The notes below the pieces were generated by a model. The model did not search any database and was not told where the DNA came from. It saw only the letters and a program-made list of their open reading frames with translations. Of a DNA stretch of 64,000 nt, positions 11,161 to 48,350 are shown one piece after another. Numbering within the stretch: position 1 is the stretch's first letter; the number at the start of each line of letters is the position of its first letter. Source of the stretch: Eledone cirrhosa. Lineage: Eukaryota. The position numbers were made by a program, and so were the translations under genes. The DNA lies in the NCBI GenBank assembly GCA_964016885.1, contig OZ024759.1, positions 30,070,001 to 30,134,000 on the forward strand, in the 5' to 3' direction.

Positions 11161-11221
11161 ATTTTATCTGAAGAAAGCGTACCAAAGTCTTTTGGTACCC
11201 TTGAAATATATATAATCAAAT
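11161..11221 (+). ncRNA. Type I hammerhead ribozyme (family H1)
   Basis: ATTTTAT-CTGAAGA-AAG c GTACCA aagtcttt TGGTAC c CTT-GAAA-TATATA-TA|ATCAAAT. Confidence 0.8.
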
Positions 11222-11532
11222 AAATATGGTTTTATAAATATAGTTTACATTTATTTAATATCATTGTATATATTCATTTAATTTATTAATTTATTAATTT
11301 ATTATTTGTGTGACCCGAATTTTCCTGGTCGTTTTTTCGGCTGTGCGAATGATTTTAAGCATTGTCTCTATGTGTTGGTATTTAAACGATAGTTATAGCT
11401 CTGGTTTATCCAAACTATTGAGCCCTTTGCCATGCATTTCGATGATTGTGTTTCGTTATTTCGTGGGCCGAGATTCCGATTCTCGATTATTTATTTATAT
11501 ATATATATATATTTATTAAAATAACAGATTAA

Positions 11533-11583
11533 AGTTTAAGCAAAGAATCGCTGCTTTCACCCTTAACGGGATCTTCTGAAACT
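11533..11583 (-). ncRNA. Hammerhead motif at the PLE 3' end (U4A substitution)
   Basis: Minus: AGTTT-CAGAAGA-T CCC gttaa GGG T-GAAA-GCA gcgattctt TGC-TT|AAACT. All three helices present. Confidence 0.7.
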
Positions 11584-12489
11584 AACAAAGTCTATCTGTA
11601 AACGCAGAACTGGATATTTCAAAAAACGTTGCAACCGGAGGAGGACAGGAAGACGATACTCTGGTTCGTGGTAACGTTCGCTGGCAAAGAACGGGAAAAA
11701 ACGAATAATACGTCATTAATAGGAGCGGTGAAAAACAATTACGCGCAAAGACAAAACCACGTTTATGGTATAAAAGAGGTCGTAGACTGATGTTCTCTTA
11801 GGTGGTGCATAGAGACGTTCTCTGGGAATGAACGAAAAAACGAAGATAATAAGTCATATGTGGAGCGTGGAGAACAATAGCACGCAAAGACAAAACCACG
11901 TAAATGTTATAGCAGAAATCGTAGACTAAAATTCTAATTAGGAGACCAAATGAATCTCCGCTACAGAGTTAAGAACAAAGTAAATAAATACAATACAGAA
12001 GTAATAGAAACAAATAAATACATACACAAGCATACGCAAAACCTTACCATGGGTATACAAAACCACGCACATATAAATATGTGTGTGTGTGTATGCTTGT
12101 GTACAAATAAATAAATAATTATATAAACGTATATAAGTAAATAAATACGTATATAACAAGCGCACACTCATACCTACATATAAATACACGAATGTTCGGA
12201 GACGTAAGTCAACTAAAACATGAAGTACACATATACACACACCCACCATACGTACGAACCTGCACACTCACGCGGACGCAAAACTCCCGTATACACATAG
12301 CCAAACCCTAAATACCAGAATATGTAAAAATTATACGCTATAACAGTCAAATATACGTACGAGAAGGTATACATACCTTCACAAAACATACGGGTAATAT
12401 ATACTTACCTATGCAAATAAGTAAAGGAATAAACAAAACATATACTTAGCTCCCACATCAAGACGTAAAATATCCACGTATAGATCGTG

Positions 12490-13497
12490 CTATCCGTTAG
12501 GGTATAACGTGGGGCTGTAATACAGGAAAGTTTTGTGCAATTTATGTTTACAAGCCGAAATTGCCTCAGATTTTTTGTTTAAGATGTGGTCTGTAGCGTG
12601 GAGTATTTCCAGGGCCTCAGCGGCACAGAGGTCACATGGTCTTTTATTTCCGTTATACGATCTAGCCCTAGCTAGGATCTCCCAGTGTAACTTATATTGG
12701 GTGTGGTTGTCTTTTAGACTCCAGATATAAGCTGAAAGTGACGTCATATTCCTTCTTAGAGGGTAACGAAAAGAATGGGTATGCATGTAAAGACGCTGCT
12801 TGAAACTATTGGCGGTTAACCCTATGTAGGCCATACGGGACGTGGGTGTTACAACCTTACATTTGTAGACAATGTTACTAGAGAGGCATTTCCCGGATAG
12901 GGGGCAATCAGCCCGATTCCTACAATTACAGTTAGTACTAACTACATGGTTGCACGTGTTCCTACGGCTAGGTAGTTTAGCTAAATTTGAAGCTGTGATG
13001 TTATGTGCAAGGTTAGGAGTCGTAGAGTAAGAAATTTTAATAGTATTTCTATTAAAAATTTTACTATATTTATGTGTAGGGGGAAAATGCTTCGTAATAA
13101 GGGAAAGAAAGATCTTAGCTAATGGTGTGGCCACCTCCATATTATATGGTGGGTTAAACCAACAAATGCGACGGGATCTATTTCTTCTAGGTCTATTTTC
13201 GTACTCTGTATATGCTACCTTATCGACAAATCCACTTCGAGCAAGAGCTTCATTGTAATAAGTGGAATGGTCGTTGAAAATGCGCTCGTTGGTGGAAAGA
13301 CAGGAAAGCCTCAACGAAACGTTTCTTACCAGGTTCTTGGTTATGCTGGCAGGATGGTTGGAATGCTTACTTATGTAATTAAGCGTATCATTCGGCTTTC
13401 TATACGGGTAATGCAACCCATTCAATAAATTGAGGGTAACGTCGAGGTAATTAACGACCGAGAGATTGGCCTCAACCTGTATAGAGAGGTTGAAGCT
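12490..13497 (-). CDS. PLE polyprotein fragment: RT end and thumb (VNYLDVTL, YRKPN, WFNPPY), CNCRNRADC linker, GIY-YIG endonuclease (IVY..YIGLT..FKQRLYMH..C..C..E..LN)
   Basis: Frame is open upstream of the annotated TTG to 13497 (SFNLSIQVEANLSVVNYLDVTLNLLNG). Motifs match Naiad-clade PLEs. Confidence 0.88.
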   Translation of the reverse strand, partial: SFNLSIQVEANLSVVNYLDVTLNLLNGLHYPYRKPNDTLNYISKHSNHPASITKNLVRNVSLRLSCLSTNERIFNDHSTYYNEALARSGFVDKVAYTEYENRPRRNRSRRICWFNPPYNMEVATPLAKIFLSLITKHFPPTHKYSKIFNRNTIKISYSTTPNLAHNITASNLAKLPSRRNTCNHVVSTNCNCRNRADCPLSGKCLSSNIVYKCKVVTPTSRMAYIGLTANSFKQRLYMHTHSFRYPLRRNMTSLSAYIWSLKDNHTQYKLHWEILARARSYNGNKRPCDLCAAEALEILHATDHILNKKSEAISACKHKLHKTFLYYSPTLYPNG

Positions 13498-45413: not shown

Positions 45414-46441
45414 TACGATATTAAACAAATGGAAACTATATTTATAAAACCATATTTATTTCATTATACATATTTCAGGGATACCATATTAAAAATATGG
45501 CATGCCTTCTTCAGATAAAATACAATATATAAGCAGTTTTATAAATAAATTTGACGTACCATAAAATATTGATCAACTTCCATTTAAAAAGTTGGTTTGG
45601 TAGTGAAAATGTTTGTAAATATTTAGTGTTAAGCACAGTTAGAAAGAAAGACGGAGAGAAGGAATAAATGTATGTATGGTCATTATTTTTCACACATTAT
45701 ATATCTATGTCTCATTCATGAATATTGATATTTACATTATAATACCCAATTCATATGAATTGATAATTCAAATTGATAGGACATAACGTAACGTTGTAAA
45801 TCTGTCATCCTTCTCTCTAGATATAGCTCTTTCTTCTCCTCCCTCTATACATGATGTAATTTAAGTATCGCTGTTTTCTCTTTAGTTATTTTTTATTTCT
45901 CTCCGTCTCCTTAACACTATAACTAAATAAATAAATAAATAAATAATTACAGTACTCCCTCCCTCCTAAATCTCTCAATTTGTATGATGAATTATTATTA
46001 TTATTCATCTGTTGCCTCAGCTGCCTCTCATTTTTCACCTCCTCACTATTTCTCTCTCCCATATCTCTCTCTATCTCTCTCTGTTTTTCTTTACATACAT
46101 TTATTCCTTCTCTCCGTCTTTCTTTCTAACTGTGCTTAACACTAAATATTTACAAACATTTTCACTACCAAACCAACTTTTTAAATGGAAGTTGATCAAT
46201 ATTTTATGGTACGTCAAATTTATTTATAAAACTGCTTATATATTGTATTTTATCTGAAGAAGGCATGCCATATTTTTAATATGGTATCCCTGAAATATGT
46301 ATAATGAAATAAATATGGTTTTATAAATATAGTTTCCATTTGTTTAATATCGTATATCTACTCCAAAACTTGTTGAGTGCTTTATATCAGTTATAAAATA
46401 TTTACTCGTTGTAACCCAACAATTTTAAATAAAACTTTTGC
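45414..46441. mobile_element. Family H1 element: inverted pLTR (45414-45676), spacer, direct pLTR with tail (46092-46441); HHRs at 45458-45522 (-) and 46247-46310 (+)
   Basis: About 262-bp apparently identical inverted repeat (the ORF track gives the same peptide on both strands). CTGAAGA-AGG c ATGCCA..TGGTAT c CCT-GAAA-TATGTA-TA. Confidence 0.85.
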
Positions 46442-47354
46442 ATATATATATATATATATATATATATATATATATATATATATATATATATATATATATA
46501 TATATATATATATATTTATATCACGATAAATTAACGGAGCCATAGACTCTGGCCATTCCCTGCCATTAATGTGCTCAAAGGAGAAGGAATCCCGAGCCCC
46601 TTATAATACAATATGTAGAGAAGATAACACACCAGAGAGAGAGATGGTGCCAAAAATAGAAACAATTATATTTGTAATAAATCACTTCCTAAAATTCCTA
46701 TAAATTTGTCATTCGTTTCAAAGTAAGTGAATTTGCAATTTTTGCCGATTTCATAGAATGAATCTTATCTCCAGTTAAAAAATGTGTTCGATGAGTCATA
46801 TATATATATATACACACACATAGACTTCTTAGGAGTACTCACGTAATACCCAGGCTCTTTTACGTTAATTTCCTGCGTAGGCCGTTCTATTGATCGACTC
46901 GATGCCAGGACACTTGCTTTCGTTGGTGATGGTAGAACACCAACCCCCCTCCACAAACACACGCACACTCACAAACCCTCACAAATTCAAACACATTCAC
47001 ATATTAAGAATGTTGTAGATTGTGGATTCAAGTTATAGATTGAAATATTTCATGATAGAAAAAAAAGTTAATATGGCTATTAGTTTGACTATTAATGTTT
47101 TATGTTTATATTCCAGCTGCAGCCATTTATGGATTTGATATATGTTAAACAGCTGAGGAGGCAAAGAATATTTATATAGTTAGGGACAGATGGTTGTACT
47201 GAACTGAATAAACGAATTACATATACGAGTTGTACATGGACACACACAAACACACACACACATACACATGTATGTATATATAAACAAGCGTGTAAGTCAA
47301 TAGGTTAAAATTAACGTAGTTTATTCATAAAATTAACGTAGTTTATTCATATTC

Positions 47355-47413
47355 GCTGTTATATATATTTCGGTGATAACTATTATGCAACAGCTATGAC
47401 CTCATCAGACAGC
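47355..47413 (-). ncRNA. Type I hammerhead with long stem II
   Basis: Minus: GCTGT-CTGATGA-GGT c ATAGCTGTT gcat AATAGTTAT c ACC-GAAA-TATATA-TA|ACAGC. Confidence 0.88.
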
Positions 47414-48009
47414 TAGAATTTGAACAGAAAAACATAATGATGGAATAAAGCTTACTTCTGTTATTTCGATTTTTTATATGCTCAGTGCTGAAGTGTTTAC
47501 CTGTGCCATTTTAACCTAAATTCATACACACATATGTACCCTTTAGAAAAATGAAAGTAAAAATAACATATACGTGGTATTTACTTACCTCAGTTTGTAT
47601 TGATGTTTAAGGTTGAAAGGAATTAGGCTGGAGATAGCTTGTCATATACATATATATATATATGTGTGTGTGGTGTGTGTGTGTGTGTGTGTGTGTGTGT
47701 GTGTGTGTGTGTGTGTGTGTGTGTGTGTGTGTGTGAGTGCGTGCGTGCGTGCGTGTGTGTGTGTGTGTGTGTGTGTGTGTGTGTGTGTGTGCGCGCGCGC
47801 GCGTGCGCGCGTGTGCGTGTGTGGTTATATTTAGGGAGGGTCATATTGTTATAATATTGCCAGCAATAATAATAGAACACACTCACTGATTTGTTGCGAT
47901 TGGCTTTCGCTTCTGTATCTTTTATATCTCCATAGTCAATTTATCTGGCAGTCAATGTTTATCATTGATTGACCAACGGTTAAAAATACAGATATAAATA
48001 TATATATAT

Positions 48010-48350
48010 ACGATATATTAACAAATGGAAATTATATTTATAAAACCATATTTATTTCATTATACATATTTCAAGGACACCAAGTTAAATTATGGTGTGC
48101 TTTCATCAGATAATATATAATATAGATCAGTTTTATAAATAAATATTGACATACCCTTAAAGAATGCGACCATTTCTGTTAATTTAACTTGGTGTCCTTG
48201 AAATATGTATAATGAAATAAATATGGTTTTATAAATATAATTTCCATTTGTTAATATATCGTATTTTTATTCCAATAATTTGTTGAGTGCTTTATATCAG
48301 TTATAAAAATATTTGCTTGTTGTATCCCAACAATTTAAATAGAACTTCTA
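48010..48350. mobile_element. Family H1 element: inverted pLTR with HHR (48054-48116, -) joined to a truncated direct copy with tail
   Basis: 48012-48180 is the reverse complement of 31300-31470. 48181-48350 restarts inside the stem II loop in the forward orientation. Confidence 0.8.

What the first reader, a model, noticed from the sequence alone, without database searches (positions are those of the whole stretch)
11161..48116. Compensatory covariation and a conserved C.C mismatch in hammerhead stem II
Basal stem pairs: AAG/CTT (11.2k, 31.4k, 48.1k), AGG/CCT (46.3k), GGA/TCC (3.76k), GGT/ACC (47.4k). Distal stem pairs: GTACCA/TGGTAC, GCACCA/TGGTGT, ACACCA/TGGTGT, ATGCCA/TGGTAT. The loops are unrelated. 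In five of six sequences the fourth position is a C.C mismatch (C.A in the sixth). Sequence changes while pairing and the internal mismatch persist, which is direct evidence of selection on RNA structure and possibly of an undescribed tertiary contact.
Basis: seen in the sequence. Interest (0 to 1): 0.75.

Follow-up and report, generated by a model that had tools for sequence, protein, structure and literature searches.

The report
Unpaired cytosine in Penelope hammerheads
These hairpins belong to hammerhead RNA motifs, predicted to cut themselves, at the tail ends of a known kind of jumping gene copied about 100,000 times in this animal genome; across the subfamilies sampled the base pairs swap while one cytosine stays unpaired, which likely marks an untested contact site that controls when the RNA cuts.

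Summary
The six stems are real as written, and the window holds four more copies. They are type I hammerheads with a palindromic stem III at the 3' ends of Hydra-type Penelope-like retrotransposons; 66,072 genome matches of one tail type alone. A wider sample does: in 22 subfamilies pairs 10.3, 10.5, 10.6 and 10.7 covary under a tree-aware null (E about 0.01), the pairs flanking 10.4/11.4 form in 22 of 22, and 10.4/11.4 in 0 of 22. 'Conserved C.C' needs correcting: C10.4 is fixed, its partner is C (18), U (2) or A (2), never G; one more distant family has U.C and one has a G-C pair. Linked proteins are only 39-84% identical. No covarying tertiary partner was found. The mismatch is predicted to cost about 6 kcal/mol. 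Best reading: a selected contact site, probably for the element's own protein, that gates folding; untested. Covariation in such ribozymes is published; I found no description of the mismatch. The scan noted the same feature twice before in this genome.

The parts
3669..3723 (-). Type I hammerhead, C3705.A3692 mismatch, short-stem C.A subfamily; inverted partner of the next copy (inverted pair 3621-3852)
3750..3804 (+). Type I hammerhead, C3768.A3781 mismatch, predicted cut after A3796
   Evidence: C.A is the family state, 10 of 10 sampled copies
9352..9428 (-).
11160..11222 (+). Type I hammerhead, C11178.C11199, predicted cut after A11214; 3' fragment of the largest family
18544..18622 (+).
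31364..31428 (+). Type I hammerhead, C31382.C31405, predicted cut after A31420
45457..45522 (-). Type I hammerhead identical to the copy at 46254 (inverted insertion, 266 bases 100% identical), C45504.C45480
46246..46311 (+). Type I hammerhead, C46264.C46288, predicted cut after A46303
47352..47416 (-). Type I hammerhead, C47398.C47375, distant family with a short G+C-richer stem I
48053..48117 (-). Type I hammerhead, C48099.C48076, predicted cut after A48061
48180..48386 (+). Truncated inverted partner of the 48109 copy; begins inside stem II and lacks the 5' core
23612..23662 (-). Broken copy of an old long-stem family: core, C10.4 and 5' arm present, 3' core missing

Best explanation
These are hammerhead motifs at the 3' ends of Hydra-type Penelope-like retrotransposons whose stem II keeps C10.4 unpaired in every subfamily sampled, and this mismatch is likely a selected contact site, probably for the element's own RT-endonuclease protein, that would gate when the ribozyme folds and cuts. 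Shown: the motif, its place 0.7-2 kb behind the ORF, covariation of the pairs around the mismatch, and the fixed C10.4. Computed: the mismatch splits stem II into a three-pair base and a distal hairpin and leaves the base only about half formed. Inferred: two copies pair through the palindromic stem III to make the active dimer; masters that kept C10.4 unpaired spread, while genomic copies decay freely; binding at C10.4 and the purine behind it steadies the weak base and so licenses cutting, while free RNA stays uncut long enough to be reverse transcribed from a start 3' of the cut site.
For: Covariation: 22 subfamilies, 213 of 275 copies: 10.3, 10.5, 10.6, 10.7 E = 0.01, 2.1-1.1 E = 0.03; the eight top-ranked of 741 column pairs are all predicted pairs; 12 real copies: 0 of 12 paired at 10.4, 7 of the 8 stem II columns with two-sided changes. 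C10.4 is the only invariant one of 40 free columns, stands in a CpG in 8 of 22 subfamilies and mutates in copies as often as its neighbours (5 of 166), so it is no mutational cold spot. It persists over nine linked ORFs spanning 3.98 substitutions per site (links checked). C-G occurs in 451 matches, scattered over families in the 100 rows listed; no family lacking C10.4 appeared in the 100 listed rows or. No subfamily has G at 11.3, 11.4 or 11.5. Predicted cost 5.8 kcal/mol; basal pairs 0.48-0.55 formed against 0.71-0.99 when paired. Copies run past the cut site: 162 of 166, 80 of 90 in searches that stop at the cut site. A Penelope hammerhead from lizard cuts only with its own protein present and uncut RNA is the template (PMC11167929, section 3 part 2).
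Against: No binding, cleavage or probing data exist for this family. The one-sidedness that suggests base recognition is weak: four changes at 11.4 against none at 10.4 in ORF-linked or clade families, which is not significant. A more distant family, with no ORF link found, has U.C or U.U at the same place, and another has a G-C pair. Invariance of 10.4 has P = 0.014 against the mean rate, uncorrected for 40 columns, and 0.07 at the coarser clustering. With only three or four changes at 11.4, absence of G is not by itself unlikely. 15 of 25 published Hydra families already have C at 10.4, paired with G (read by eye), so the C may be inherited. In the lizard element the protein is proposed to bind the RT start hairpin, not stem II.
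Confidence: 0.38

Rival explanations
1. RNA-RNA tertiary contact: the mismatch is a miniature internal loop II that lets a long stem II dock on stem I, for example by opening the groove at purine 10.5 for U1.7, and speeds cleavage at low Mg2+.
For: The mismatch sits next to where loop II starts in tertiary-stabilised hammerheads, whose one shared contact is an A of loop II with a U next to residue 1.6 (PMC2553840, passages). 10.5 is a purine in 22 of 22 subfamilies and 1.7 is U in 16 of 22 with only two changes. Adding a pair to a short stem II lowered activity in one natural hammerhead (PMC3088659, passages).
Against: No covariation between 11.4, 10.5 or 10.4 and any stem I column (best E for 11.4 = 11). 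The canonical loop A is absent (11.5 is always a paired pyrimidine). U1.7 is missing in six subfamilies and in the GUC family, is paired in the long-stem families, and two changes are not unusual (mean 4.3). No hidden tertiary contact was found in a schistosome minimal hammerhead (PMC4209133 supplement, legend S6).
Confidence: 0.25
2. Pure thermodynamic brake: any weak mismatch at this position keeps the basal stem open so that the RNA is not cut before it is copied; no base is recognised.
For: About 6 kcal/mol and half-formed basal pairs; other weak features in the clade (10.1-11.1 unpaired in 5 of 22 and G-C in 8 of 22, U15.2-A16.2, AUA triplet); templates were uncut; U.C and U.U versions exist in another family.
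Against: Does not explain why the 5' base stays C and the position never moves across 22 subfamilies, while 10.1-11.1 takes six different states. Dimer dependence already supplies a brake.
Confidence: 0.2
3. Frozen accident: one G-to-C change in the ancestor broke a C-G pair, and the site has simply not been repaired.
For: C10.4-G11.4 is common in published Hydra-clade hammerheads (15 of 25 families); the statistics for invariance are modest.
Against: Every neighbouring column changed 2-7 times and kept pairing in 22 of 22; the linked proteins diverged to 39-84%; 11.4 stayed C in 18 of 22 in an A+T-rich genome; one substitution on either side would restore the pair.
Confidence: 0.13
4. The C is conserved for a DNA-level role (promoter or endonuclease site in the terminal repeat).
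For: Penelope terminal repeats hold promoters (PMC6765202, passages).
Against: The bases on both sides of the C change freely and only in pairs, which no DNA-binding motif would allow.
Confidence: 0.03

Closest known systems
Hammerheads of Hydra-clade Penelope-like elements (Craig et al. 2021, PMC8557442; passages, section 11, supplement parts 1-2 and a search of the supplement seen)
   Same: Type I, near the 3' end of a C-terminal GIY-YIG element with CxCx5C linker and DKT motif; short palindromic stem III; mismatch at 10.1-11.1 tolerated; C at 10.4 in 15 of 25 listed families.
   Different: None of the 25 listed families has an internal mismatch at pair 4 (read by eye; their descriptor would tend to miss one). 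All have C15.2-G16.2, this clade mostly U15.2-A16.2. The listed octopus element has a different, fully paired stem II. The tails of this clade were not found as hammerheads in the supplement.
Minimal hammerheads of metazoan Penelope-like elements (Cervera and de la Pena 2014, PMC4209133; main text parts 1-2 of 4, supplement parts 1-2 of 3 seen)
   Same: [quoted passage not shown]
   Different: Their consensus has an extra nucleotide after A9 and G10.1-C11.1, both mostly absent here. No conserved helix II mismatch is mentioned in what I read, although 2 of the 56 single examples in Fig. S3 show one at the fourth pair (C.A in a sea urchin, U.U in a fluke; read by eye).
Protein-assisted hammerhead of the Anolis Poseidon element (Frangieh et al. 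2024, PMC11167929; passages and section 3 part 2 seen)
   Same: Penelope terminal-repeat hammerhead with insertions that extend past the cut site.
   Different: Different clade; ORF starts in stem II; no mismatch reported in what I read.
Tertiary-stabilised full-length hammerheads, sTRSV and Schistosoma (PMC2553840; passages seen)
   Same: Same core; the contact zone lies close to the position of the mismatch.
   Different: Four-pair stem II with a loop A making a Hoogsteen pair; here stem II goes on past a one-by-one mismatch and that A is absent.

Membership tests
Type I hammerhead ribozyme | Core CUGANGA, GAAA and UH cut triplet | tested here: met
   10 of 10 complete window copies; N7 takes all four bases and H17 is A or C. 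The core was part of my search patterns, so families with a broken core would be missed.
Type I hammerhead ribozyme | Stems I, II and III around the core, open at stem I | tested here: met
   Pairs 2.1-2.3 form in 22 of 22 subfamilies, 2.4 in 21; stem II covaries.
Type I hammerhead ribozyme | Self-cleavage | not testable with these tools
   No assay; no read-end data.
Rfam hammerhead models | Match at the gathering score | tested here: not met
   No Rfam match in the window; none among the 150 shown of 370 weak matches.
Minimal Penelope hammerhead consensus (Cervera 2014) | Short palindromic helix III for dimer formation | tested here: met
   8-base self-complementary stem III; 15.3-16.3 paired in 22 of 22, 15.4-16.4 in 21 of 22. 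Dimer formation itself is inferred.
Minimal Penelope hammerhead consensus (Cervera 2014) | G10.1-C11.1 and an extra nucleotide after A9 | tested here: not met
   G-C in 8 of 22 subfamilies; register without an extra base fits all. Filed as a variant, not as a member of this consensus.
Hydra clade of Penelope-like elements | RT followed by C-terminal GIY-YIG endonuclease, hammerhead near the 3' end | tested here: met
   ORF ends 0.7-2.1 kb before the core; spacer shared with other copies of the same family for 6 links fully and 3 partly of 12 checked, 3 links dropped.
Hydra clade of Penelope-like elements | CxCx5C linker, DKT and RWK motifs | tested here: met
   CxCx5C in 9 of 9 linked ORFs; DKT in L033, L036, L048, L517 and RWK in L517; same motifs in Hydra-1_Obim.
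Hydra clade of Penelope-like elements | Absence of the CCHH motif | not tested
   Not scored.
Hydra clade of Penelope-like elements | Placement with published Hydra proteins in a tree | not testable with these tools
   Published sequences could only be read, not aligned; tree with unnamed homologues only.
Hydra clade of Penelope-like elements | Generally shorter than 3 kb (a tendency, not a definition) | tested here: inconclusive
   One tandem unit measures 3.68 kb (L033).
Tertiary-stabilised full-length hammerheads | Loop II A pairing with a U next to 1.6, or a pseudoknot | tested here: not met
   11.5 is a paired pyrimidine in 22 of 22; no stem I-stem II covariation. Pseudoknots with distal loops were not searched.
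Non-LTR retrozymes | Tandem non-coding units each with a hammerhead | tested here: not met
   Window copies are dispersed or inverted pairs, and the families link to ORFs.

The most novel reading that the evidence does not exclude
A cephalopod radiation of Hydra-type retrotransposons has added a new near-invariant nucleotide to the hammerhead: an unpaired C10.4 that replaces the loop I-loop II contact with a protein-read or triple-forming switch, so that the element's own protein decides when its RNA cuts itself.
Probability: 0.3. Interest if true: 0.7.

Novelty: new variant of a known kind. Interest (0 to 1): 0.42.

Why it matters
Why Penelope elements carry slow hammerheads in RNA that must be copied uncut is an open question. 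A single fixed nucleotide outside the catalytic core, with natural C.C, C.U, C.A, U.C and sporadic C-G versions already in the genome, gives a precise and cheap test of whether these ribozymes are protein-gated, tertiary-stabilised or merely braked. It also suggests that descriptors demanding an unbroken stem II miss very large hammerhead families (no Rfam match here).

Tried and rejected
Rfam scans found nothing relevant. No RNA holder listed among public runs. Contigs of three runs of unknown kind were laid: no substitution at 46264 or 46288 reached the 3% listing level while neighbouring stem positions varied, but only 3 and 14 contigs came from the two other organism labels, so I draw nothing from them about other species. 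The ORF at window 12490-13497 was first taken as the parent of the 9420 hammerhead; rejected, it belongs to another family; the tree still holds that wrong link and one unverified link and was replaced. A suspected C-G family turned out to be C.C with sporadic changes. A suspected chimera at L135 was a neighbouring insertion. One old family has majority U at 10.4 (3 of 5), but its copies read CA or TG, the two decay products of CG; it enters only the 18-family set. An alternative hairpin pairing C10.4 with G8 was considered and rejected by eye because 10.6 and 10.7 do not fit. Copy counts were not used as evidence of selection: they reflect ancestry and decay. Lunse et al. 2017 on small Penelope hammerhead dimers could not be read and may bear on novelty; a minimal-hammerhead paper recalled from memory was also not held. 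Searches for a prior description; none of the listings showed it.
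Full report
Observation. Each lies between a CUGANGA core and GAAA, followed by an 8-base self-complementary stem III, an A or C at the cut site, and a strand that closes stem I: a type I hammerhead. Four further complete copies are present (3715, 9420, 18552, 45514), so the window holds ten, eight with C.C and two with C.A. The claim that the loops are unrelated fails for four of the six: three share 74-78 of 80 flanking bases and a fourth 56-63. The six are about three lineages. Rfam does not detect them.

What carries them. The genome is 3.0 Gb; the one homologue of the linked protein with a species name is from Argonauta, so an octopod host is likely (inference). 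The core-plus-tail pattern has 66,072 matches against 22 for the control; other tails add 26,449, 18,095, 3,306 and 3,889 with some overlap, so about 100,000 copies. Copies come as 3' fragments and inverted pairs. Where more sequence survives, an RT plus C-terminal GIY-YIG ORF ends 0.7-2.1 kb upstream. Of 12 ORF-ribozyme links checked by asking whether the spacer recurs in other copies of the family, six held fully, three partly (L033, L240, L229) and three were dropped. The nine ORFs used as linked in the final tree all have the CxCx5C linker, and DKT and RWK motifs are seen, which are the marks of the Hydra clade (PMC8557442 section 11). They are 39-84% identical and span 3.98 substitutions per site; the clade that holds them also holds two unlinked ORFs and five database proteins whose ribozymes are unknown.

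Covariation. I collected 393 hammerheads from fetched loci, kept 347 with the AU...AU stem III, set aside 72 centre hits of searches that selected against C, and clustered the other 275; a few selected copies re-entered through regions fetched later. Subfamilies with three or more copies (22, holding 213 copies) were reduced to majority states. Pairs 10.2, 10.3, 10.5, 10.6 and 10.7 form in 22 of 22, with 2-6 changes per side; under a home-made R-scape-like null on a distance tree, 10.3, 10.5, 10.6 and 10.7 reach E = 0.01 and 2.1-1.1 E = 0.03, and the eight best of 741 column pairs are all predicted pairs. With 18 coarser families three pairs pass E < 0.05 and 10.3 is at 0.056. On 12 hand-picked real copies the pair counter gives 89% of cells paired against 25-49% for slid controls, and RNAalifold finds the same structure with the gap at column 10.4. 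So selection on the helix is supported. It is also expected: compensatory change in Penelope hammerheads is published (PMC4209133).

The mismatch. Position 10.4-11.4 is paired in 0 of 22 subfamilies: C.C 18, C.U 2, C.A 2. Genome counts for the main tail are 57,513 C.C, 4,365 C with another base, 3,613 another base with C (the last includes double counts from cores inside loops); a large separate family is C.U. C-G occurs 451 times, scattered over families in the 100 rows shown, and no family without C10.4 appeared in the 100 rows shown or (1,358 matches). C10.4 is the only invariant column among 40 not fixed by my search (P = 0.014 against the mean rate, uncorrected; 0.07 in the coarser set, where the one exception is a CpG-decay family). 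It mutates in copies as often as its neighbours (5 of 166). Outside the AU...AU group, an ORF-linked GUC family also has C.U; an unlinked family has U.C or U.U at the same place; another pairs it G-C. The right statement is therefore: an unpaired, mostly pyrimidine-pyrimidine fourth position with a fixed 5' C in this clade.

Mechanism. No column covaries with 11.4 (best E = 11) and no G outside the core is invariant, so a Watson-Crick tertiary partner is not in evidence. A purine always follows the C, no G lies at 11.3-11.5, and U1.7 is present in 16 of 22: hints only. The mismatch is predicted to cost 5.8 kcal/mol on average and to leave the three basal pairs about half formed. Insertions run past the cut site in 162 of 166 clustered copies and 80 of 90 hits from patterns ending at the cut site, so their templates were uncut there; this matches the lizard element, whose hammerhead cuts only with its protein present (PMC11167929). 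I therefore favour a protein-read contact that steadies a marginal stem (0.38), ahead of an RNA tertiary contact (0.25), a plain brake (0.20) and a frozen accident (0.13). None of these steps was tested; the one-sidedness that favours recognition (four changes at 11.4, none at 10.4) is not significant.

Known and new. The element class, the dimer-type ribozyme and its covariation are known. None of the 25 Hydra families in Craig's table has an internal mismatch at pair 4, and 15 have C10.4 paired with G (by eye), so the feature probably began as one G-to-C change; descriptor searches would tend to miss it. Two of Cervera's 56 single examples show a fourth-pair mismatch without comment. Ten literature searches showed no description; Lunse et al. 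2017 could not be read, and figures of the papers were not visible. Two earlier notes of this scan report the same feature on other pieces of this genome; they are not independent support.

Verdict. Observation confirmed, interpretation partly supported; a new variant of a known kind; interest 0.42.

Noticed in passing
window 11509-13496 (-), variant core at 11578: A young Hydra-type element (40 scored copies 98-99% identical) whose 3' end folds as a hammerhead with U4 replaced by A, a short stem II and a long non-palindromic stem III; it falls outside the mismatch clade in the protein tree.
   Followed up: partly
window 133 (+) and 32020 (-): Remnants of a different minimal hammerhead family with a short palindromic stem III, 82% alike over 89 bases.
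   Followed up: no
window 48428 (-): Core followed by a fully paired six-pair hairpin but without an intact GAAA; possibly another hammerhead family or a permuted one.
   Followed up: no
window 42728-44659, 55581-57485 and about 61700-64000 (+): Three intronless DUF229 (sulfatase-like) gene copies, 90-95% identical, in a tandem cluster.
   Followed up: partly
window 37797-38798 (-) and 49253-49750 (-): 3' fragments of a LINE with a zf-RVT domain.
   Followed up: no
window, about 15 places such as 1063-1242, 22425-22616, 34411-35193, 35892-36094, 54509-54675: Many copies of a short interspersed repeat, several in inverted clusters; resembles a cephalopod SINE (recalled, not tested).
   Followed up: no
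L494, L500, L503, L518 and others: Old hammerhead family with a 61-base stem II and U.C or U.U at the fourth position; no ORF found upstream in the eight extended regions fetched for it, so it may be non-autonomous.
   Followed up: partly
window 22633-23442: A 30-base minisatellite of about 20 near-identical units.
   Followed up: no
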